From an uncultured Thermoleophilia bacterium (GTDB lineage Bacteria > Actinomycetota > Thermoleophilia > UBA2241), in NCBI GenBank assembly GCA_963814545.1, contig CAWFDC010000019.1:229872-293871 (forward strand): 64,000 nt of DNA. Reading direction: 5' to 3'. Of the stretch, positions 18,909 through 28,203 are shown piece after piece. A program made the position numbers and the translations under genes. The notes under the pieces are model-generated. The model ran no database searches. It was not told the DNA's origin and saw nothing but the letters and a program-made list of their open reading frames with translations. Numbering within the stretch: position 1 is the stretch's first letter; each line of letters opens with the position of its first letter.

Positions 18909-18983
18909 GCCAGTTTAGCTCAGTGGTAGAGCAACGGTTTTGTAAACCGTCGGTCGTCGGTTCAAATCCGACAACTGGCTCCA
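18909..18983 (+). tRNA. tRNA-Thr (anticodon TGT), CCA encoded
   Basis: Acceptor GCCAGTT/AACTGGC. D-arm AGCTCAGTGGTAGAGC. Anticodon stem-loop ACGGT-TTTGTAA-ACCGT. T-arm GGTTCAAATCC. Discriminator T plus CCA. Confidence 0.93.
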
Positions 18984-19199
18984 TTCCCACGACTCACGTT
19001 GGGTGCCGACCTTTCACGATCTCTACGGTGGATGCTGATCTTGCATGATCACTTCCTGGTTCGAGTCTTCACATTTCGTTCCTGTCATTCACATGCGACG
19101 GATAGCAGACGCCTCCGTTCATCAAGCGTATCCGCTCCAAGGGTGCGATTGGTTGCAGGGAGTTTGGCAGCCGCAGAGTCTGGGTAGCCAGGCCCCGCC

Positions 19200-19460
19200 A
19201 ATGTTCAGTGGCCCCGAAATCGCGCATCGAGATCTTGCCACCGGGCAGGTCCCCGCCACAGGAAACGACCTCGAGCCACACGGAGGGTTCAGTTACACGT
19301 GCTGCAGGACTTGCCAGGGATCGGCCCCGCGTGCGCTACCGGACTATTGGAGCGGTTTGAGCGTGTGGAAGCTGTGATGACCGCCAGCGCCAAGCCGCTG
19401 CGAACCGTGGACGGGATCGGACCGAAGCCTGTAGCGTTCATCCGCTGGGCGCTGGAATGA
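19200..19460 (+). pseudogene. Remnant of an ERCC4/HhH nuclease gene (paralog of 22952..23695)
   Basis: Reads RHRKRPRATRRVQLHVLQDLPGIGPACATGLLERFERVEAVMTASAKPLRTVDGIGPKPVAFIRWALE*. The intact gene reads PRHGKRPKTRRRVQLRLLQGLPGIGPSRATALLERFERVEAVMTASAESLQAVDGIGSKTAASIRWALE*. An in-frame TAG lies upstream and no nuclease domain is recognisable. Confidence 0.8.
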
Positions 19461-19748
19461 GGCGCCTTCTTGCTGCGGCAGCCTCGCGGCCAGCAGCGAG
19501 CCGCACAAGGTGGAAGAGCGCGTTGGTAAAAGGCGATTCCGCCCGACTGCCGCTTGAAACCAAAAGCCCGCTGGAGCAGCCTTCAGCCAGCGCGACATAC
19601 GTGCTGATGAGTGGCGCTGCCCCAAAGCCGCGGGCGGCCGGGCCTTTCCCGCGAGAAAGGACGGCCAGACTTCGGCTCTCGAACGGTAGTACCGCCTCGT
19701 GTCGCGACAGATCGCGGGCAACCGAGCGTAAGAAGCAGCATTGTGGCG

Positions 19749-20733
19749 ATGAACGACGACAGACTGGAGCACGGCGACCTGATCGATTTCCTGGCGGAAG
19801 ACCCGATGGGGGAGCGCCGATATTGGGCCGTGATGCTGGTCGTGCGGATGCTGGAGACGAAGCTTGGCTGCCGCTATCGGGGAGACAACCGACTCAGCGG
19901 CGCAGCGAACGCCGAAGCGGCCATCGGGTCGTTGCGGGCAGCGATGGCGCCGCTCTCCCAGGCCGAACAGGGGTTGATGTTGCGGACGATCTTCCTGATG
20001 TCGTGGGAACAGGTGCGTCGCCGCACTGGCCTCAGCCTCCGGTTGCCCGAGGTCCTTGACGCACTGGGCAAGGATCTCGGCACGTTCGCCTGTCTCGCTG
20101 CCGCGCACTCCGTGATCGAGCAAGGAGATGACGCGGTACGACGGTACCCGCTCGATGGGCTTCTGCCGGAAGTACGGCAGCCAGGGCAGGGCTTGATCGT
20201 GACCCTCGACGCCGAGGATTGCCGTCTGCCTCGAGGTCGCCGAGACACAAATCGAAATCGATCGGCTGACCATCGCCGTCCGAAGCTTTCGTGGTTTGAA
20301 CTCGGAAGCGAACCTCCGTCCCCTCGTCGCTTGGTATCTCTCGACACTGCCGGGCGGGGAAACCGATCGGGCGGTGGCGACGCTGCTCTCGGACCTTCCG
20401 GTCGCGTCCAAAGACGAGCAGGTGTGCTGGCGATCACTCGGCCTGCTCGATTGGATGGCCGCGCACCCGGATCATCCCAAGGCCGCCGAGGCCATGGCGG
20501 CGGGCAGACAAGTCGCCCGGGCCGACGTGCGCAAGGCTGCGGCCCAAACGGCCGCAGCGCTCGGACGCTGGGAGGTGCTTGTCGCACTCGGTCGGGATGA
20601 CCCGGACCGGGGGGTGAGGCAGCGGGCTGAGAAGCTGCTGGCCAACAGGAGCGGTACAGGAGGCCTTGGCGGCCAAGGTGACCTCTTCGAGCGGTCCGAT
20701 GCATCGCGGCCGCCAAGTGCCCCGGACCGGTAA
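19749..20733 (+). pseudogene. Hypothetical protein with a HEAT-like C-terminus, apparently frame-broken near 20200
   Basis: MNDDRLEHGDLIDFL... reads sensibly to ~20200. Sensible sequence then continues in another frame (…IAVCLEVAETQIEIDRLTIAVRSFRG-LNSEANLRPLVAWYLSTLPGG…RQRAEKLL…) up to the stop at 20733. Could instead be two genes, the second starting at TTG 20296. Confidence 0.35.
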
Positions 20734-20757
20734 CTCGGCAAAGGAGCCAGTTAGCCC

Positions 20758-20869
20758 ATGAGCAAGAAGAAAGGCCATCGCAAGTCACTGCCGACGAGTT
20801 GAGATTGAAGCCCAGCCGCACGGCTTACATGTCCTGGGGCAAGGGCCGCCGGCAGCCGCTGCGTTTCAG
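20758..20869 (+). pseudogene. Deletion remnant joining the start of a 24033-type gene to the middle of a 24490-type gene
   Basis: CCAGTTAG..ATGAGCAAGAAGAA matches 24019-24046. 20801-20869 (…KPSRTAYMSWGKGRRQPLRF) matches 24715-24788. About 690 bp present in copy 2 is missing here. Confidence 0.75.
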
Positions 20870-21787
20870 TCAGTCGCCAAACCGAGCATGCAGTTCTTCA
20901 GCCTGCTGGGCGAATTTGCGGGGGTTGTTTTTCTTGAGCCTCAGCAGATTCTGCAGCTTCCAGCGCACGGCGGGCAGTTCCGCGAGGTGCGCGCATCTCA
21001 TCAGACGCCAGTCCGGCGCTCCAGCCACCAGGTCCAGGAGAAACCGGCGGTGGTTATCGGTCAGCGCGGAAGGCAATTGGGACCTTAACTCGCTGCGGAC
21101 CGCAACCAGTTGATCGACCGCGATCGGCTGCCGCGTCAGGCCGATGAACTCCCGCTCGAAGGCGGCGGAGAGGTCGTGATCCCGAGAGAACAGCACTTCA
21201 TGCACCGGGCGGTTGTGTCCGGCCAGATAGCAGACGAAGCATTCCACCACGTCTTGGCTCAGCCTGCCTTTCTCGAACAGTCCAAGCAGGTCAAAGAGGT
21301 CGCGGGGATGCTGGCGATCCAAGGCGGCGACCAGCTTGCTCCCATACAACTCCGGAGTCGCCAACACAGGGGCAGTCCATTCCGTCGTGAACAGCCGGCG
21401 CGCTTCGGCACGAAGACTCCGTCGCTCGATGGGCAGAACCGCGCCGCGGAATACCTGGTTCACTTCCATTTTCACCTGATTGCGGCCGCGCCGGACAAAC
21501 AGTTTGATCTCCTGGCCTTCGCTCGTGGACGAGACTTCGGACTCGATTCCCATCTCGGCCAGGCGTGTTCGGGCCGTTCTCAGCGCCCTGGAGATAGACG
21601 CCAAAGCACCCGCGCGGGGCGCCTTGTAGTCAGTGTAGACCACGTCAACGTCCACGGACAGGCGCGGCATGTCCTTAACGAACAGGTTGATGGCCGTGCC
21701 TCCCTTCATCGCGAAAGTGGGCGTTTCAAGAACAACCGGGGCGGCTTCCAGAAGCAACCGAACAGTCTCGACGTAGGCTTTGTCCAT
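20870..21787 (-). CDS. AbiEii/AbiGii-family nucleotidyltransferase toxin (type IV TA)
   Basis: Start ATG 21787 (MDKAYVETVRLLLEAAPVVLETPTFAMKGGTAINLFVKDMPRLSVDVDVVYTDY…) is a typical AbiEii N-terminus. The start overlaps the AbiEi stop (TAATG). Confidence 0.85.
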   Translation of the reverse strand: MDKAYVETVRLLLEAAPVVLETPTFAMKGGTAINLFVKDMPRLSVDVDVVYTDYKAPRAGALASISRALRTARTRLAEMGIESEVSSTSEGQEIKLFVRRGRNQVKMEVNQVFRGAVLPIERRSLRAEARRLFTTEWTAPVLATPELYGSKLVAALDRQHPRDLFDLLGLFEKGRLSQDVVECFVCYLAGHNRPVHEVLFSRDHDLSAAFEREFIGLTRQPIAVDQLVAVRSELRSQLPSALTDNHRRFLLDLVAGAPDWRLMRCAHLAELPAVRWKLQNLLRLKKNNPRKFAQQAEELHARFGD

Positions 21788-22530
21788 TATGGCTTCAGAA
21801 CGAGCGTGGTCCCGTCTTTGAACCGGGCGGTCCAACGGCCGCGTCCCGGTCTTCCTCCTGCCGCCCTCCGGGCGGCGGCGGCCCACGGCAGATTGAGTTC
21901 CTGCGCCCAGAGCACGCAAAGCCGCCTCACCTTAACACGCTGGCAGTGTCTGAGTAGCACGGCCAGGATTTCAGGGCGCAATGAACGGACCCCTTCGAGA
22001 ATGTGGCGGGCTTCCTCGAGTCCCTGGTGGATACCCACTTCACTCAGCAGTTCGAGCACCGCCATTTCCGGCACGGAAACCAGAACTCCCTTGGGAGTCT
22101 CCGGCAGCGGCTGCAGTCCAAAGTCCCTGGCAAGGGAGCCCGCGAAGGGGCTGCGCGTCGTGTAGCGCGCGCGAAATCGTTCCACGAACCACTCCGGCAG
22201 CCGGGCCTTTTGCTCGCCCCACAGGCAAAGCGATTCTTGCGCCGGGACGTTGTGCCGCACGCCCCGCCACCCCAAAGCGGTCTTGCCACCGACATGGAAG
22301 CCGGGCAGGCGCCGAGCCAGGAACTCCAGGCAATCTGCCTCGCGGAGCGTGTCGTTGGGAAACATGAATACGCCGCGTCCCAGGCGCGCCAGCCAACCGG
22401 ACTTCGAGTAATGATGCGCGAGCGCCGACGACACGCCGATTCTGGCCAGATCGCGCTGGTCCAATGGCGCTCCGCGTGGGAACGTCCTTTGCAGCCGTTT
22501 GATTAGGCTGGAGCGCTTCGTTAAAACCAT
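21787..22530 (-). CDS. AbiEi-family antitoxin/transcriptional regulator
   Basis: MVLTKRSSLIKRLQRTFPRGAPLDQRDLARIGVSSALAHHYSKSGWLARLGRGVFMFP… is a winged-helix AbiEi-type N-terminus. Translationally coupled to the toxin gene. Confidence 0.8.
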   Translation of the reverse strand: MVLTKRSSLIKRLQRTFPRGAPLDQRDLARIGVSSALAHHYSKSGWLARLGRGVFMFPNDTLREADCLEFLARRLPGFHVGGKTALGWRGVRHNVPAQESLCLWGEQKARLPEWFVERFRARYTTRSPFAGSLARDFGLQPLPETPKGVLVSVPEMAVLELLSEVGIHQGLEEARHILEGVRSLRPEILAVLLRHCQRVKVRRLCVLWAQELNLPWAAAARRAAGGRPGRGRWTARFKDGTTLVLKP

Positions 22531-22646
22531 GCTTGAATTGTAGCGTCAGAATCAAGCAGATGGCAAGCGGTCAAACGACCTTGAGGATCGGGGTAGGCAG
22601 GACAGAATCGGTTCTTTCATGACAATACATGACACTTTACGGGGGA

Positions 22647-22746
22647 AACGTGCGTTAACGTGCGTGATGACCGTTCTGGATCATAATGCACGAAAGCTCC
22701 CTGTTGACGAAGGGATGACGCACGTTCACGCAGAAAAGACGCACGC
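22647..22746. promoter_or_regulatory. Direct/inverted 9-mer repeats upstream of abiEi (candidate operator or att-arm sites)
   Basis: AACGTGCGT at 22647-22655 and 22657-22665. Inverted ACGCACGTT at 22718-22726 and ACGCACGC at 22739-22746. TTGACG at 22704. Lies between the abiEi start (22530) and the tRNA fragment (22755). Confidence 0.4.
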
Positions 22747-22754
22747 CTGGGTTT

Positions 22755-22802
22755 GGTTTTGTAAACCGTCGGTCGTCGGTTCGAATCCGACAACTGGCTC
22801 CA
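22755..22802 (+). repeat. Duplicate of the 3' 48 nt of tRNA-Thr (att-like direct repeat)
   Basis: GGTTTTGTAAACCGTCGGTCGTCGGTTCGAATCCGACAACTGGCTCCA matches 18936-18983 at 47 of 48 positions (A/G in the T-loop). No 5' half of the tRNA is present. Confidence 0.92.
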
Positions 22803-22951: not shown

Positions 22952-23695
22952 ATGGACATTGGCCGCGTCTGGAAAGGAGGATGCATGAATGAAGCAAGAG
23001 GAGTTGCGGACGAGAGCGGAGCGGCCAAAGAGGGCGATGGTATCGAGAGCACCCCCAGGACCTCGGCGAACGTTGTCCTTGTGGACCATCGAGAGACACG
23101 CAGCGGTGTTCTGACAGCGTTGGAACAAATCCCGGGCATTGCGGTCCGGGTCGAGCGACTCAAGTTGGGGGATTATCTGGTCAACAACTCCTGTGTGTTC
23201 GAGCGGAAAACTCTGTTGGACTTCGCCGAGTCCATCAAAGACGGACGCTTGTTCACGCAGGCCCGCCGGCTCGCTTCCTGGCCTGACCGGGCGGCCTTCA
23301 TCATCGAGGGAACAGCCCAGGACTTGAGTGGCAGTTCGATGCGGCGGGAAGCCTTGCAGGGGGCCGTCATCACACTCACGTTGATCTACGAACTTCCGGT
23401 CCTGCGATCGCATGACCCCGCGGAGACAGCGCGGTTGCTCGTCTATGCGGGCGACCAATTGCGCCGGCATGCGGACGGCGCCCTACCCCGGCACGGAAAG
23501 AGACCCAAAACGAGACGACGAGTCCAGTTGCGGCTGCTACAGGGCCTGCCCGGGATCGGGCCATCGCGCGCAACAGCCTTGCTCGAGCGGTTCGAGCGGG
23601 TCGAGGCCGTAATGACCGCCAGCGCCGAGTCCCTCCAAGCGGTGGACGGGATCGGCTCCAAGACCGCGGCGTCGATCCGGTGGGCGCTGGAATAG
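22952..23695 (+). CDS. ERCC4 (XPF/Mus81-type) nuclease with a C-terminal helix-hairpin-helix pair
   Basis: VLVDHRE…LGDYLV…FERKTLLDF (GDxn-ERKxxxD signature). FIIEG. C-terminal LLQGLPGIGPSRATALLERF…VDGIGSKTAASI. Alternative start ATG 22985 after GGAAAGGAGG. Confidence 0.82.
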   Translation: MDIGRVWKGGCMNEARGVADESGAAKEGDGIESTPRTSANVVLVDHRETRSGVLTALEQIPGIAVRVERLKLGDYLVNNSCVFERKTLLDFAESIKDGRLFTQARRLASWPDRAAFIIEGTAQDLSGSSMRREALQGAVITLTLIYELPVLRSHDPAETARLLVYAGDQLRRHADGALPRHGKRPKTRRRVQLRLLQGLPGIGPSRATALLERFERVEAVMTASAESLQAVDGIGSKTAASIRWALE

Positions 23696-24032
23696 AGCGT
23701 GGTTGTGCCCGCGCTGGTCCTGTCGAAGATCGCCAGCGTCTCTGTGGACTTCCCGGACGCGGCGGCGGCCATCCAGGTCTCGGGCACGTCCGGCCCCCGC
23801 CAGGAAGAGGCACAGCGCTTGGGACGCATCTTGTGGCCCAAGCCGGGCGAGAATCAGGCCCACTTCCACACGGTTGTTTCCCGCGACACCGTGGAACGAT
23901 AATTCGGCTTGAAATAGCAACCGTTTCTGTGCGAGCAAGGTTACGAATGCCGCGTCGGGACCCTGGACCGGCCGGATGAATCGCTGCCGGCAACTGCGCC
24001 GGGCGGGTGAATCAACAACACACCAGTTAGGG

Positions 24033-24482
24033 ATGAGCAAGAAGAAGCGAGTGCCCACGTTCGCCCGAGCGAAGCCGGTCGATCAGCCGCCGGTGTCGCC
24101 GATGAGGGAGAGCGTGCTCTCTGCAGCCCAGACCAACGCAGGCGCAGAGGTGGATCACATTTGCGGGCTTGCCTCCAGGGGGGAGTCCCGCGTCATCGGC
24201 TTCAGCAAGTTGGTGTTGTTTTCCACGGCGACGCGCGATGCCTGGTTGCTCGACTGGGAAGATGAACTGGCGATCTGCCTGATGAAGGATGGAATGCCCC
24301 GACCGTACGAGCTTGGCGAGACCGATCGCGCCTTCGCCATCCAATGGCGAGGTCGCTACCACATCGAGGGAGGACTGTTTGCGTACATCGACAACGCCAC
24401 GCCAACGCACGCGCGAGTGATTCAGGGCTATCCAACCGAGGCCATACTCGCCACAATCGAACGAATGAAACGCGGGATTTGA
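24033..24482 (+). CDS. Hypothetical protein (cassette gene 2)
   Basis: MSKKKRVPTFARAKP…WLLDWEDELAICLMKDG…IQWRGRYHIEGGLFAYIDN… No family recognised. Its start is duplicated at 20758. Confidence 0.6.
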   Translation: MSKKKRVPTFARAKPVDQPPVSPMRESVLSAAQTNAGAEVDHICGLASRGESRVIGFSKLVLFSTATRDAWLLDWEDELAICLMKDGMPRPYELGETDRAFAIQWRGRYHIEGGLFAYIDNATPTHARVIQGYPTEAILATIERMKRGI

Positions 24483-24489
24483 CGGCCCT

Positions 24490-24951
24490 GTGAACCGACA
24501 GCGACTCAAAGCCAAGACGATTGTCATTGCGAAGCAGCTTCTCGAAGCCAAGGGCTATGTCAGTGCCGTTGAGGTGCTGCTGGCCATGGGCCGGTTGTCC
24601 AAAGAGGACTATGAGCGATGGCGCTTCCGCCAAGTGCCGCATCTCGAAAAGGTTCTGCCCGGCAGCCTGAACGAGCACGCGTTCTTCTGTCGCGAATTGC
24701 GCGTCCACGCCCGCGAATTGAAGCTGAAGCCGAGCCGCACGGCTTACATGTCCTGGGGTAAGGGCCGCCGCCAACCGCTGCGTTTCACGAAGTACGGCGA
24801 TCCGCACGTCGAGGCCCTTTTCTCGACCCATTACGTCAGCACCGCAATCACTGATTCGCAAAGGGCCCGGCGCGCATGGATTCCGGCACCCCATTCCGCC
24901 ATGCCGTCTGGCGCTCAGTCCCCGTCCTTAGCCGATACGGACCAAGTCTAG
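24490..24951 (+). CDS. Hypothetical protein (cassette gene 3)
   Basis: MNRQRLKAKTIVIAKQLLEAKGYVSAVEVLLAMGRLSKEDYERWRF…KPSRTAYMSWGKGRRQPLRF… Begins 8 nt after gene 2. Its stop codon TAG overlaps the first bases of an H1 repeat. Confidence 0.6.
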   Translation: MNRQRLKAKTIVIAKQLLEAKGYVSAVEVLLAMGRLSKEDYERWRFRQVPHLEKVLPGSLNEHAFFCRELRVHARELKLKPSRTAYMSWGKGRRQPLRFTKYGDPHVEALFSTHYVSTAITDSQRARRAWIPAPHSAMPSGAQSPSLADTDQV

Positions 24952-25020
24952 CCCGCATTTCTCGCCAACTGTTGATGTCATCTGACCGGTCACCGTCCCA
25001 TTTCACCTGAAATGCGGGCT
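24950..25020. repeat. H1 hairpin repeat (solo copy)
   Basis: AGCCCGCATTTC…TGACCGGTCA…GAAATGCGGGCT. 12-bp perfect terminal stem plus a central 10-bp palindrome. Same orientation as the copies at 14228 and 42320. Confidence 0.9.
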
Positions 25021-25572
25021 CTCCCCGTTCACCGGATTGGTGAAGCGATCCACCGCACCGCTGCCGATGAAAGGACCGGCAAGGTTTGTCCACAGCATGC
25101 CCGGTGCGAGCGCGGGCGCGCTCTGCACCCAGTAGAAGGCGCCGGCCACTGAGGGCCAGGCGATTTCCACGCCGTTGGCCGCGAGTTGAATCGCCAGTGG
25201 CGGACCGGGCGGCGTGACGAAATCCAGGGCGTAGATCAGGTTCCCGCCCAATTCACTCGGAGTGTGCGTGGTGCCAACCAGCGTGGCCGCACCGGTCGTT
25301 GGCGACACGCGGTACAGCTTCCGTGTCGAAGCCGCCGCACTGCTCCAGTCGTGCGGCACGTCCACGACGCGCCAGTTCGAATCGTCGAAGCTGGCCTGCA
25401 TGGCCACCGGCTCATCGCCGCGATGGAAGCGACGCTCTGCGGCGAGGCGTGGCGTCGCGCCACGGGCGAGCAGGCCAACGCAAAAAGGGACCTTCTGAAC
25501 GCAAAATGGCAGTACTTCTTCGACGGCAATGCGGTAGAGTACGCGCGAGTGAAGCGCGCTCTTCGCTGTGCT
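25003..25572 (-). pseudogene. Chimeric gene remnant: GH2-like N-terminus, a short unrelated segment and a truncated C-terminal beta module
   Basis: The frame is open from 25572. …RRFHRGDEPVAMQASFDDSNWRVVDVPHDWS is the GH2 N-terminal signature. It is followed directly by KLYRVSPTTGAATLVGT…LIYALDF and PPLAIQLAANGVEIAW…FTNPVNGESPHFR*. The last four codons and the stop lie inside H1. Confidence 0.6.
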
Positions 25573-25785
25573 TCAGCAGTTGTCGCGGAAAGCACACAGG
25601 CTGGCATAGCATCAACAAGATTGAAACATTGAACGCGAGTTTGAATCGGTTCGCGAAACTGAATGGACCACAGACAGAAGCCATCGGGCTGAACACGACG
25701 CTCGCCTTCGACACACGCGAAGAGCACCGGGCGGAATTTGTCCTCATGCCAAACCAGCCGTGAAACCACTCAAAGAGACCAACCG

Positions 25786-28203
25786 ATGAAGACACTGATG
25801 AAAACCTCGTTCCTCCCTCTCGCCCTCGTAGCCCTCTTCGCCGCGCCGCTTCCGGCATTGGCCGCCGGCAAGGGCCAGCCGATGACGATCCCCGACTTCA
25901 CCAAAGGCGGCACCATTCCCGCAGGCGCAAAGCACGACTGGAATCTCGGCCCCACGGGGCTGCGCGGGTGGATGTTTTGCGACAAGATGGTGACCACCGA
26001 TGCGCGGCAGATTTCCATCACCAAAGTGGAGAAGGGTTCTCCCGCCGATGGCATCCTCGCGGTCGGGGACGTCATCCTTGGTGTCGGCGGCAAGCCGTTT
26101 TCCTACGACCCGCGCACCGAGTTCGGCAAGGCACTCACCACCGCCGAATCGGAAGCGGGCGGAGGAAAACTGACCGTGACCCGCTGGCGGGCTGGCAAAT
26201 CGGAGGAGGTCGTCGTCAAACTCCCGGTTCTCGGCACCTACAGCGCCACCGCACCCTACGACTGCCCGAAATCGAAGCGCATTCTCGAGCAAGGGTGCAA
26301 GGCGCTTGCCGCAAGAGTGGCGAAATCCTCGCATGAAGAGGATCCCATCGTGCGTTCCCTCAATGCGCTCGCCTTGTTAGCCAGCGGCGATCCCGCCTAC
26401 CTCCCGCTGGTCAAGAAGGAAGCCCAGTGGGCGGCGGGCTACTCGTCCGACTCGATGCAGACCTGGCACTACGGCTACGTCATGCATGCTGCTCTCCGAG
26501 TATGTGATGGCGACCGGCGACGAATCGGTCATGCCGGGCCTGCGGCGACTCGCGCTGGAAGCCGCCAAGGGTCAGAGCGCGGTCGGCTCGTGGGGCCACG
26601 GGTTCGCGAGACCCGACGGCCGCCTCGGCGGCTACGGGATGATGAACTCTCCGGGAGTGCCGCTGACCATTTCGCTGGTGATGGCCCGCGCGGCGGGCGT
26701 GAAAGACCCGGCGTTGGACCGCGCCATCGAACTCAGTGCCCGCTTGTTGCGATTCTACATCGGCAAAGGGGCGATCCCCTATGGCGATCATCATCCGTGG
26801 ATTGAGAACCACGACGACAACGGCAAGTGCGGAATGGCCGCCGTCCTGTTCAACCTGCTCGGCGAGGCGAAAGGCGCGGAGTTCTTCTCACGCATGAGCA
26901 TCGCCTCCCACGGACCGGAGCGCGACACCGGACACACCGGCAATTTCTTCAACATCCTGTGGTCGATGCCGGGCGTCGCCCAGTCCGGCCCCCATGCCAC
27001 GGGAGCCTGGATGCAGGAGTTCGGTGCCTGGTATTTCGACCTCGCACGGCGCTGGGACGGCACTTTCCTCCACCAAGGCCCGCCGGAGCTGGACGATGAC
27101 AGCTACGCGGGCTGGGACTGCACCGGCGGCTACCTGCTGGCCTACGCGATGCCGCTGAAGAAGATCTATCTGACCGGGAAACGCCCGGGCGTCGCCCCGC
27201 AGCTCGATGCCGCCGCGGCGCAAGCACTCATCCTCGATGGCCGCGGCTGGAGCAACAAGGACCGCAACAGCGCCTACGACAAGCTCAGCGAAGACCAACT
27301 CTTGGAACGCCTCGGCAGTTGGTCGCCAGTGGTCCGCGAGCGGGCCGCGATGGCGCTGGGCCGCCGCAAGGAGGTCCCCATTCCACCCCTGCTGAAAATG
27401 CTGGAGTCCCCCGCACTGGATTCCCGCTACGGCGCCTGCCAGGCCCTGATCGCCCTTCGCGGGCGTGGAGCGCCGGCCATTGAAGCACTGCGGAAATCAT
27501 TGGCGGAAAAAGACCTCTGGCTGCGCATCAAGGCGGCCGAGGCCCTGGCAAGCATCGGCGCCCCCGCCATGCAAGACGGTGCCGCAACTCCTTGAACTGC
27601 TGGCTCAGGTGGACAAGGAGAACGATCCGCGCGGCATGCAGCAGCGGTATCTTTCCTTCGCCCTTTTCGATGACGGCGGGATGCTGAGCCGGTCGCTTGA
27701 TGGAGTGGATCGCGAGGCGCTCTACAAGGCCGTGAGGGCCGGGCTCAGGAACCAGGACGGTCGCGCCGCGGGGCAGCATCGGATCGGTCTATCGCAATCT
27801 CTCCGCCGAAGACATCAAACCCTTGTTGCCCGCCATCTATCAGGCGATCATCGAACCCGCTCCGAGCGGAGAGATGTTCGCCGACTCGATTCGCGTGGAG
27901 GGGCTCCGCCTCTTGGCCAAACATCGGATCGAGGAAGGAATCAGCGCCTGCGTGAACTACACCCGCGATCAGAATCCATGGGCCAGCGAGCATCGGACAC
28001 CTGAATTGATGAAAGTCCTGCTCAGCTACGGGGCCCACGCGAAGTCGGTCATTCCGGAACTGACAAAGATCGCCGACTACTTCGAAAAGGACGAAAAGGA
28101 CTTTCCCAAGGAGCTGATGCTCATGAAGGCCAAGTGCGTCCGCGAAACGATCCGTGCGATTGAAGCCTCGACGGACTCCCCGGAACTCATCCGCCTCAAG
28201 TAG
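25786..28203 (+). pseudogene. Secreted PDZ - alpha/alpha-toroid-like - HEAT-repeat protein, three frame breaks
   Basis: Signal peptide MKTLMKTSFLPLALVALFAAPLPALAA. PDZ segment (ISITKVEKGSPADGILAVGDVILGVGGKPF). Protein continuity runs across track ORFs 25738, 26486, 27465 and 27823. Breaks at 26482-26489, ~27572 and ~27768. Confidence 0.75.

What the first reader, a model, noticed from the sequence alone, without database searches (positions are those of the whole stretch)
22952..24951. Uncharacterised three-gene cassette: ERCC4/HhH nuclease plus two unknown small proteins, duplicated within the island
The nuclease carries the complete GDY…ERKxxxD ERCC4 signature and two HhH motifs. XPF/Mus81-type nucleases are rare as stand-alone bacterial genes. 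It is followed by two tightly spaced genes (24033..24482 and 24490..24951, 8-nt gap) that I cannot place in any family. The same trio occurs in the decayed copy to the left, so the three genes travel together. A structure-specific nuclease with two co-transferred unknowns, next to an Abi module at a tRNA hotspot, is the kind of context where new defence or mobile-element maintenance systems are found. This functional suggestion is inference only.
Basis: inference. Interest (0 to 1): 0.6.

Follow-up and report, generated by a model that had tools for sequence, protein, structure and literature searches.

The report
Nuclease beside a wrecked XPB operon
The "three-gene cassette" is an intact XPF-type DNA nuclease gene sitting next to the remains of an XPB helicase operon: the helicase is now a dead stub and only two small accessory genes of unknown function survive, so this is an eroded hotspot remnant and shows no sign of being a new defence system.

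Summary
The genes are real and lie at the stated coordinates.

- **Nuclease.** The ERCC4/(HhH)2 gene (best start 22985, 236 aa) aligns end to end with the short archaeal XPF of Aeropyrum pernix. It is under purifying selection.
The 340-nt "gap" after it holds the last ~102 codons of an XPB/ERCC3 helicase, with two in-frame stops.
- **The two unknowns.** Elsewhere, g2 (24033-24482) and g3 (24490-24951) follow a full-length XPB. The tightly packed operon is XPB–g2–(g3)–g4–HC3, where HC3 is a ~700-aa protein carrying an XPB-N-terminal-like domain. XPB lies directly upstream of g2 in 14 metagenome loci, and none of the 14 shows ERCC4.
- **This assembly.** No intact XPB, g4 or HC3 was found (2.7 Mb, 77% complete).
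- **ERCC4 linkage.** ERCC4 is tied to tRNA-Thr(TGT), which precedes it in several related contigs. That tRNA is an insertion hotspot bounded by 48-nt repeats.
- **Left copy.** It is a separate AbiE-bearing island, also found in another MAG.
- **Fold and family.** g2 and g3 match no Pfam, PADLOC, PHROG or PDB entry. g2 belongs to a large unannotated domain superfamily. g3 looks weakly winged-helix-like.

There is no evidence for defence. Interest is moderate, and it lies mainly in the conserved XPB operon.

The parts
18909..18983 (+). tRNA-Thr (anticodon TGT), the anchor of the hotspot
   Evidence: ARAGORN. 100% identical to the tRNA-Thr that precedes ERCC4 in L097 and L098.
19230..19457 (+). 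Left copy: fragment of the ERCC4 C-terminus (HhH part, residues 172-247)
   Evidence: tblastn 70% aa identity to P0001; direct repeat D1 at 72% nt identity.
19749..20727 (+). Left copy: g1, a 327-aa unknown gene, broken by one frameshift near 20229
   Evidence: tblastn to the intact 327-aa protein of L025 in two frames, 69% and 71% identity. No Pfam match.
20758..20873 (+). Left copy: deletion remnant joining the g2 start (MSKKK) to the middle of g3
   Evidence: Sequence reading; tblastn 76% identity to g3 residues 68-101; repeat D3.
20870..21790 (-). AbiEii toxin (nucleotidyltransferase)
   Evidence: Pfam AbiEii 3e-34. 92% aa identity to AbiEii of L025.
21787..22530 (-). AbiEi antitoxin/regulator
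   Evidence: Pfam AbiEi_3 1.4e-29 and AbiEi_3_N 1.1e-26. 94% aa identity to L025.
22755..22802 (+). 48-nt direct repeat of the tRNA-Thr 3' end (47/48), the distal boundary of the inserted island
   Evidence: the repeat finder D4. The same repeat bounds the related island in L025 (8336-8383 and 14321-14368) and precedes ERCC4 in L030.
22985..23695 (+). Short XPF-type ERCC4 + (HhH)2 nuclease, intact (the ORF is open from 22952)
   Evidence: Pfam and NCBIfam. End-to-end alignment to Aeropyrum pernix XPF 2bgw, 8e-30. dN/dS 0.12-0.15 against four relatives.
23699..24010 (+). XPB/ERCC3 helicase pseudogene: the last ~102 of ~571 codons, two in-frame stops, motif VI R changed to W
   Evidence: The same ERCC4|XPB-stub junction occurs in L097.
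24033..24482 (+). g2, 149 aa, an XPB-operon gene from a large unannotated domain superfamily
   Evidence: 45 close homologues. XPB directly upstream in 14 loci. 951 clusters at 50% identity in the profile search. No Pfam or PDB match. AF2 pLDDT 69, mostly beta, no fold match.
24490..24951 (+). g3, 153 aa, an optional XPB-operon gene: ~125-aa core plus a disordered tail
   Evidence: 127 homologues. Lies between g2 and g4 in 6 canonical loci. AF2 pLDDT 82, with weak winged-helix-like hits only. The same domain is fused to a Zn-ribbon and DUF2293 elsewhere.
24949..25023 (.). Hairpin repeat abutting the g3 stop; homology to the operon ends here
   Evidence: 97% and 92% copies elsewhere on the contig. 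An inverted 97% copy in L030.

Best explanation
The stretch is a composite, not a three-gene system.

(a) The ERCC4/(HhH)2 gene encodes a short, crenarchaeal-type XPF. By analogy with that family it is a homodimeric, metal-dependent endonuclease that cuts 3' flaps, forks and nicked junctions. In this lineage it is inherited together with tRNA-Thr(TGT), and it is still under purifying selection. It most likely works on its own in recombination/repair, or in upkeep of the element it came with.

(b) The XPB stub, g2 and g3 are what is left of an XPB helicase operon. Its intact form elsewhere is XPB-g2-(g3)-g4-HC3, with overlapping or near-abutting genes. HC3 carries the XPB-N-terminal-like domain PF13625. 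g2 and g3 (and g4) are therefore most likely small accessory subunits or regulators of an XPB-HC3 DNA translocase. A deletion removed XPB codons 1 to about 470. g4 and HC3 are gone, at a hairpin repeat.

(c) All of this lies on the far side of a tRNA-Thr insertion hotspot. A non-autonomous AbiE-carrying island bounded by 48-nt repeats has inserted there.

Shown: the anatomy, the homologies, the operon context, the pseudogene state and the selection values. Inferred: the biochemical roles of g2 and g3, and that they are now orphans with little or no function.
For: - ERCC4 identity and intact catalytic motifs. dN/dS 0.12-0.15.
- XPB stub.
- XPB directly upstream of g2 in L021, L022, L038, L040-L048, L050 and L078. 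g3 after g2 in L041-L044, L047 and L048. g4 then HC3 in L041, L043, L046, L047 and L048.
- The canonical XPB is a true XPB (1e-84 to human/yeast XPB).
- No intact XPB, g4 or HC3 was found in G000.
- tRNA-Thr, or its 48-nt 3' end, lies 110-190 nt upstream of ERCC4 in the window, L030, L097 and L098.
- The same ERCC4|XPB-stub junction occurs in L097.
- The left copy equals the island of L025 bounded by two 48-nt repeats.
- dN/dS of g2 and g3 is 0.14-0.23 against operon copies, but 0.36-0.72 between copies that have lost XPB.
Against: - g2 and g3 keep intact frames here and in four other loci without XPB (L029, L030, L037, L049), so they may work without the helicase.
- The higher dN/dS between orphan copies rests on few substitutions.
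- No physical interaction of g2 or g3 with XPB or HC3 has been shown.
- The g2 model is only moderately confident, and neither fold points to an activity.
- G000 is 77% complete, so an intact XPB operon could sit in the missing part.
- ERCC4, XPB pieces, g2 and g3 co-occur in two MAGs, which could reflect a real partnership rather than accretion.
Confidence: 0.6

Rival explanations
1. ERCC4 and the XPB module are true partners. The ancestral unit was tRNA-Thr-ERCC4-XPB-g2-g3(-g4-HC3), a bacterial counterpart of archaeal XPB-Bax1, of Hef (helicase fused to an ERCC4 nuclease) and of eukaryotic TFIIH plus XPF. XPB opens or translocates DNA and the XPF-like dimer cuts the junction. g2 and g3 bridge or regulate the two.
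For: - ERCC4 abuts the XPB stub with only 3 nt between them in both the window and L097.
- L030/L034 carries ERCC4, g2, g3, an HC3-like gene and an XPB N-terminal fragment within 6 kb.
- Both tandem copies in the window begin with ERCC4.
Against: - No ERCC4 lies within 8 kb upstream of intact XPB in L021, L022 or L043, nor in any of the other canonical loci.
- Close ERCC4 homologues stand alone in L033 and L096. On plasmids they have unrelated neighbours.
- The window and L097 junctions may be a single inherited event.
- ERCC4 tracks the tRNA, not XPB.
Confidence: 0.2
2. g2-g3 is a self-sufficient two-gene module, for example a DNA-binding regulator plus partner or an addiction-like pair. It merely hitch-hikes next to XPB and still functions here.
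For: - Intact g2-g3 pairs without XPB occur in the window, L037, L029, L030 and L049.
- The 8-nt spacing is conserved.
- dN/dS stays below 1 in all comparisons.
- g3-like domains occur on conjugative plasmids of Legionella and Bradyrhizobium.
- A distant g2-like gene lies next to a tyrosine integrase in L072.
Against: - g3 is dispensable in five operons, where g2 is followed directly by g4 (L024, L038, L039, L046, L050).
- g2 occurs alone in L023.
- There is no toxin, antitoxin or defence profile match.
- Constraint looks relaxed between XPB-less copies.
Confidence: 0.12
3. One reading: ERCC4 + g2 + g3 form a new anti-phage or element-maintenance system.
For: - The location is a hotspot with AbiE here, and with ParE, HicA or PemK pairs at related loci.
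- The trio recurs in L030/L034.
- ERCC4 homologues are common on large plasmids.
Against: - No PADLOC or PHROG match.
- No relatives were found in IMG/VR viral contigs.
- ERCC4 is absent from about 20 other g2 loci.
- g2 and g3 belong to an operon that, in the one locus whose neighbours were scanned, has ordinary chromosomal neighbours.
Confidence: 0.06

Closest known systems
Short archaeal XPF (Aeropyrum pernix XPF, PDB 2bgw/2bhn) and the Hef nuclease domain
   Same: The nuclease domain plus tandem HhH aligns over residues 42-243 at 8e-30, with VDxRE, GDY and ERKx3D conserved. NCBIfam Hef nuclease C-terminus scores 1e-48.
   Different: It is bacterial. PCNA partnership is not expected. There is no fused helicase. 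It is linked to a tRNA-Thr hotspot. The score is far below the equivalog cut-offs (89 against 300 bits for Arch_Xpf).
Bacterial XPB helicase (Mycobacterium tuberculosis Rv0861c; PMC3353954)
   Same: The operon helicase has the same architecture: PF13625 N-domain, ResIII, ERCC3_RAD25_C and Helicase_C. Like Mtb XPB, its cellular role is unknown, and no partner proteins had been identified as of that paper.
   Different: Here the helicase survives only as a 102-codon pseudogene. The intact relatives carry three extra small genes (g2, g3, g4) between XPB and the PF13625-only protein. g2 and g4 were not found next to the 12 actinobacterial-type XPB genes sampled.
Archaeal XPB-Bax1 and eukaryotic TFIIH core (XPB-p52-p8) with XPF-ERCC1
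   Same: An XPB translocase is encoded next to partner proteins, one of which (HC3) carries an XPB-N-terminal-like domain. That recalls the XPB-NTD/p52 pairing described for TFIIH. A structure-specific nuclease lies nearby in this lineage.
   Different: No sequence or fold similarity of g2, g3, g4 or HC3 to Bax1, p52, p8 or any PDB chain was detected. The nuclease is XPF-like, not Bax1-like, and its linkage to XPB is confined to one lineage.
Non-autonomous tRNA-integrated islands (CIME-like elements) with AbiE toxin-antitoxin cargo
   Same: 48-nt direct repeats of the tRNA 3' end bound a 3.8-kb insert here and a 5.9-kb insert in L025. Neither holds an integrase. AbiEi/AbiEii sit at one end.
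   Different: The finding's own three genes lie outside the repeats, on the distal side. No mobilising integrase was identified anywhere in the window.

Membership tests
XPF/Mus81/Hef (ERCC4) nuclease family | ERCC4 domain with the metal-binding and catalytic motif GDx(n)ERKx3D | tested here: met
   Pfam ERCC4 1.1e-24 over 138 of 140 positions. GDY at 72-74 and ERKTLLD at 84-90 align to A. pernix XPF.
XPF/Mus81/Hef (ERCC4) nuclease family | C-terminal tandem helix-hairpin-helix (HhH)2 dimerisation and DNA-binding domain | tested here: met
   HHH_5 2.5e-13, and HHH with two stretches; aligned to the 2bgw (HhH)2.
XPF/Mus81/Hef (ERCC4) nuclease family | Structure-specific cleavage of 3' flaps or forks as a dimer | not testable with these tools
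   Needs purified protein and model substrates.
XPB/ERCC3 SF2 helicase | Complete helicase core (motifs I-VI) in an open frame | tested here: not met
   Only residues ~471-572 remain, with two in-frame stops and QRLGRILR changed to QRLGRILW. It is a pseudogene.
XPB operon accessory genes (g2, g3), a grouping proposed here | Gene directly downstream of a full XPB, co-oriented and closely spaced | tested here: met
   g2 meets this in 14 loci. g3 lies between g2 and g4 in 6 loci. In the window the same order is kept behind the XPB stub.
Known anti-phage defence systems (PADLOC-DB 2.0) | Profile match of at least one component to a defence-system protein | tested here: not met
   ERCC4, g2, g3, g1 and HC3 give no match. 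g4 gives only a marginal one (HEC-01B, 0.0015). The XPB stub and full XPB show only generic helicase similarity to PbeA.
Integrative element at a tRNA gene | Direct repeats of the tRNA 3' end flanking the insert | tested here: met
   18936-18983 and 22755-22802 agree at 47 of 48 positions. The same holds in L025. This applies to the left insert, not to the finding's three genes.
Integrative element at a tRNA gene | An integrase or recombinase gene inside the element | tested here: not met
   No integrase domain was found in the ORFs scanned between 15.8 and 31.2 kb, nor among the genes called in the L025 island.

The most novel reading that the evidence does not exclude
XPB-g2-(g3)-g4-HC3 encodes a previously unrecognised multi-subunit bacterial XPB machine. 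In it the PF13625-bearing HC3 plays a p52-like role, and the small proteins act as regulatory or bridging subunits. In this lineage the machine recruited a short XPF nuclease, making a bacterial analogue of the TFIIH-XPF (or XPB-Bax1) opening-and-incision module. The window would then preserve a fossil of that partnership.
Probability: 0.15. Interest if true: 0.75.

Novelty: new variant of a known kind. Interest (0 to 1): 0.42.

Why it matters
The cellular role of bacterial XPB is still unknown, and the one paper read here (PMC3353954) states that no TFIIH-like partners had been found in bacteria. This work gives a conserved, tightly packed operon of XPB with three small uncharacterised proteins and a protein carrying an XPB-N-terminal-like domain. 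That provides concrete candidates for such partners and can be tested by co-expression.

g2 also marks a large domain superfamily (about 950 clusters at 50% identity) that Pfam does not cover.

For this window the lesson is more modest. A cassette that looks like a novel system is a decayed mosaic at a tRNA hotspot. Only the XPF-like nuclease is clearly maintained by selection.

Tried and rejected
- **Profile libraries.** Pfam, NCBIfam, PADLOC and PHROGs gave nothing for g2, g3, g1, g4 or HC3.
- **PDB by sequence.** Profile searches for g2, for g3 and for the wider g2 superfamily gave nothing significant. HC3 by single-sequence phmmer also gave nothing.
- **PDB by fold.** Foldseek found no match at E <= 0.001 for either model. 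For g3 there are only weak winged-helix-like hits: kleisin C-terminal WHD (probability 0.82), MukE and SarA.
- **Viral contigs.** IMG/VR holds no relatives of g2 or g3.
- **Distant g2-like loci (Acidobacteriota-type soil contigs).** The neighbours are uninformative: unknown 539-569-aa proteins, a beta-lactamase, GGT, and one integrase.
- **g2 domain fusions.** Only SEC-C motifs turned up.
- **Phylum and genus tallies around G000.** These proved of doubtful relevance. Same-genus genomes do not share this contig's sequence, and the 'phylum' sample looks actinobacterial. I therefore re-centred on the genome of L034.
- **Literature.** Searches for bacterial XPB partners or an ERCC4-based defence found nothing specific.
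- **ERCC4 as the island's recombinase.** I considered this because ERCC4 sits where an integrase usually does. I rejected it as unsupported: 48-nt tRNA-end duplications are the hallmark of tyrosine integrases, and the L025 island has the repeats without any ERCC4.
Full report
**Observation**

The window has about 62% G+C and many spurious ORFs. The three genes are nevertheless real.

The frame 22952-23695 encodes an ERCC4 domain (Pfam 1.1e-24) followed by tandem HhH motifs (HHH_5 2.5e-13). NCBIfam places it closest to the C-terminal nuclease part of Hef (1.2e-48) and to archaeal XPF. It aligns over residues 42-243 with the short XPF of Aeropyrum pernix (2bgw, 8e-30), and VDxRE, GDY and ERKx3D are conserved. 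The closest homologues are 236 aa, and a GGAGG lies 5 nt before the in-frame ATG at 22985, so that is the likely start.

g2 starts at 24033 (MSKKKR...). g3 starts at GTG 24490, 8 nt after the g2 stop. Both are conserved families, with 45 and 127 homologues and mean column identities of 70% and 57% in the alignments.

The 340 nt between the nuclease and g2 are not intergenic. Bases 23699-24010 match ERCC3_RAD25_C (5e-17) and the NCBIfam XPB equivalog (2.8e-26). They align to residues 471-572 of a full-length XPB. There are two in-frame stops, and helicase motif VI reads QRLGRILW instead of QRLGRILR. This is the 3' stump of an XPB helicase gene. Its end lies about 20 nt before g2, the same spacing as in intact loci.

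**Where g2 and g3 belong**

I fetched 47 metagenome loci and 3 genome loci for g2, plus contigs encoding individual homologues.

- A full or contig-truncated XPB lies directly upstream of g2 in 14 loci: L021, L022, L038, L040-L048, L050 and L078.
- An XPB stub lies there in three: the window, its 98.7%-identical twin L037 from activated sludge, and L024.
- Downstream, g3 follows g2 in L041-L044, L047 and L048.
- A further, highly conserved 155-aa gene (g4) follows. After it comes a ~680-700-aa protein (HC3) whose only recognisable domain is PF13625, the domain that also forms the XPB N-terminus.
- g3 is optional. In L024, L038, L039, L046 and L050, g2 runs straight into g4.
- In L043 and L047 the genes abut or overlap by 4 nt.
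- The helicase is a genuine XPB. It scores 1e-84 to human and yeast XPB, against 4e-46 to the archaeal protein.
- In L043 the neighbours of this operon are ordinary genes: MFS transporter, aldolase, acyltransferase and polysaccharide export.
- ERCC4 appears in none of these loci.

**Where ERCC4 belongs**

Close ERCC4 homologues (73-86% identity) are preceded by tRNA-Thr(TGT), or by its 48-nt 3' end, at 110-190 nt in the window, L030/L034, L097 and L098. In L031/L032 an AAA_14/DUF559 insert lies between the tRNA and ERCC4. More distant homologues stand alone in other settings (L033, L096). Homologues at 35-38% identity sit on 154 plasmids, 135 of them from Pseudomonas; the one Pseudomonas record inspected is a 398-kb plasmid. 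On the Polaromonas JS666 plasmid the gene lies inside a PRTRC cassette.

L097 has the same ERCC4|XPB-stub junction as the window, but different genes follow it (AP endonuclease, SbcCD).

ERCC4 shows dN/dS of 0.12-0.15 against four relatives. g2 and g3 show 0.14-0.23 against operon copies, but 0.36-0.72 between copies that have lost XPB. The latter values rest on few substitutions.

**The 'duplicated' left copy**

The left segment (18984-22802) is bounded by the tRNA and a 47/48 repeat of its last 48 nt. It contains:

- an ERCC4 C-terminal fragment;
- a frameshifted 327-aa gene (g1);
- a g2-start/g3-middle deletion remnant;
- AbiEii and AbiEi.

L025, from another MAG, has the same island in better condition between two identical 48-nt repeats. 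Its order is g1, a g2 fragment, g3, PRiA4_ORF3, DUF6398, SEC-C, AbiEii, AbiEi, with AbiE 92-94% identical to the window's and no integrase.

So the left copy is a related, non-autonomous island that inserted at the hotspot. It is not a duplicate of the right-hand genes. The whole region is a mosaic. For example, g3 is 95% identical to L030's at the protein level, while ERCC4 is 75% and g2 is 71-73%.

**State of the system in this genome**

The assembly (2.7 Mb, 76.6% complete) shows no intact XPB, no g4 and no HC3. The related MAG G413 holds XPB only as three scattered fragments. None of 110 other genomes of its order has XPB, and 6 of the 110 have an ERCC4 homologue. The module is therefore accessory and eroding in this lineage. 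Homology to the operon ends at a hairpin repeat that abuts the g3 stop and recurs on the contig.

**Folds and families**

- **g2.** The AF2 model has pLDDT 69. It is beta-rich with flanking helices and has no PDB fold match. A profile search of 1.84 billion representatives found 951 clusters (504 at 1e-10). They share an FFSTxTGDAWxLD core. None is covered by Pfam or the PDB, and a few are fused to SEC-C motifs.
- **g3.** The model has pLDDT 82, with a ~125-aa helical/hairpin core and a disordered tail. It gives only weak winged-helix-like hits. The same domain forms the N-terminus of Zn-ribbon + DUF2293 proteins, and of a 'LIM domain' protein on conjugative Legionella plasmids.
- PADLOC and PHROGs give nothing for any component, beyond generic helicase similarity of XPB to PbeA. 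IMG/VR holds no relatives of g2 or g3.

**Interpretation**

The best-supported reading is a composite:

- an XPF-like nuclease that is maintained by selection and tied to tRNA-Thr;
- next to it, the wreck of an XPB operon whose two surviving small genes are accessory partners of an XPB-HC3 translocase and are probably now orphans.

A real ERCC4-XPB partnership, analogous to XPB-Bax1, Hef or TFIIH-XPF, remains possible at about 0.2. It is supported only within one lineage. An autonomous g2-g3 module (about 0.12) and a defence system (about 0.06) are less likely.

**Caveats**

- The kinship groups offered for G000 seem not to fit this contig. Twelve same-genus genomes match contig C5 at 73-96% identity, but they barely match C19, and their tRNA-Thr is only 76% identical.
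- The 'phylum' sample looks actinobacterial, whereas the nearest public contigs are labelled Verrucomicrobiota. C19 may be mis-binned. The tallies should be read with that in mind.
- Metagenome contigs are short, so absence of ERCC4 near XPB is firmly shown only for the few long loci.

Noticed in passing
G000 contig C19 (the window) versus contig C5: Twelve same-genus genomes match C5:50000-56000 at 73-96% DNA identity. They show almost nothing for the window region, for its SSF transporter (at most 24% aa identity) or for C19:100000-106000. Their tRNA-Thr is only 76% identical. The 311-kb contig may be mis-binned. The closest public contigs are labelled Verrucomicrobiota, while the bin's 'phylum' sample looks actinobacterial.
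   Followed up: partly
L043:10915-11382, L047:1558-2025, L024:5599-6066: g4 is a 155-aa gene (MTDEQRLIEKLQRIEALFAGAATPGER...) that is 85-95% conserved in most loci (63-79% in three). It always lies just upstream of HC3 in the XPB operon. It has no Pfam match and only a marginal PADLOC hit (HEC-01B, 0.0015). It is absent from G000.
   Followed up: partly
window 24033-24482 and P0289-P0436: g2 defines a large unannotated domain superfamily: 951 clusters at 50% identity, with invariant F..D.W. It has no Pfam or PDB counterpart. Some members are fused to SEC-C zinc motifs.
   Followed up: partly
window 24949-25023; also G000:C19:272190-272261 and 244098-244169; L030 6650-6724 (inverted): A ~72-nt hairpin repeat abuts the g3 stop codon and recurs on the contig and in a related MAG. 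It marks the point where homology to the XPB operon ends, and it may have mediated the loss of g4 and HC3.
   Followed up: no
L025 8309-14368: A 5.9-kb island bounded by two identical 48-nt tRNA-Thr repeats carries g1, a g2 fragment, g3, PRiA4_ORF3, DUF6398, SEC-C and AbiEii/AbiEi but no integrase. It is a better-preserved version of the window's left segment.
   Followed up: yes
G413 (GCA_964413865.1): C79, C117, C217: XPB survives only as three separate fragments (residues 4-220, 148-329 and 471-541) on three contigs. The same MAG has two full ERCC4 copies plus an N-terminal fragment. This is parallel erosion of the helicase with retention of the nuclease.
   Followed up: partly
L121 (Polaromonas sp. 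JS666 plasmid 1, 172373-173026) and L120 (P. aeruginosa PA83 plasmid): Stand-alone ERCC4+HhH2 genes are widespread on large conjugative plasmids (154 records, 135 of them Pseudomonas). In Polaromonas the gene lies inside a PRTRC cassette.
   Followed up: no
window 25738-27595: A DUF6288/PDZ/HEAT gene is split over two frames at about 26486. Together with the XPB stub and g1, this fits a contig rich in pseudogenes.
   Followed up: no
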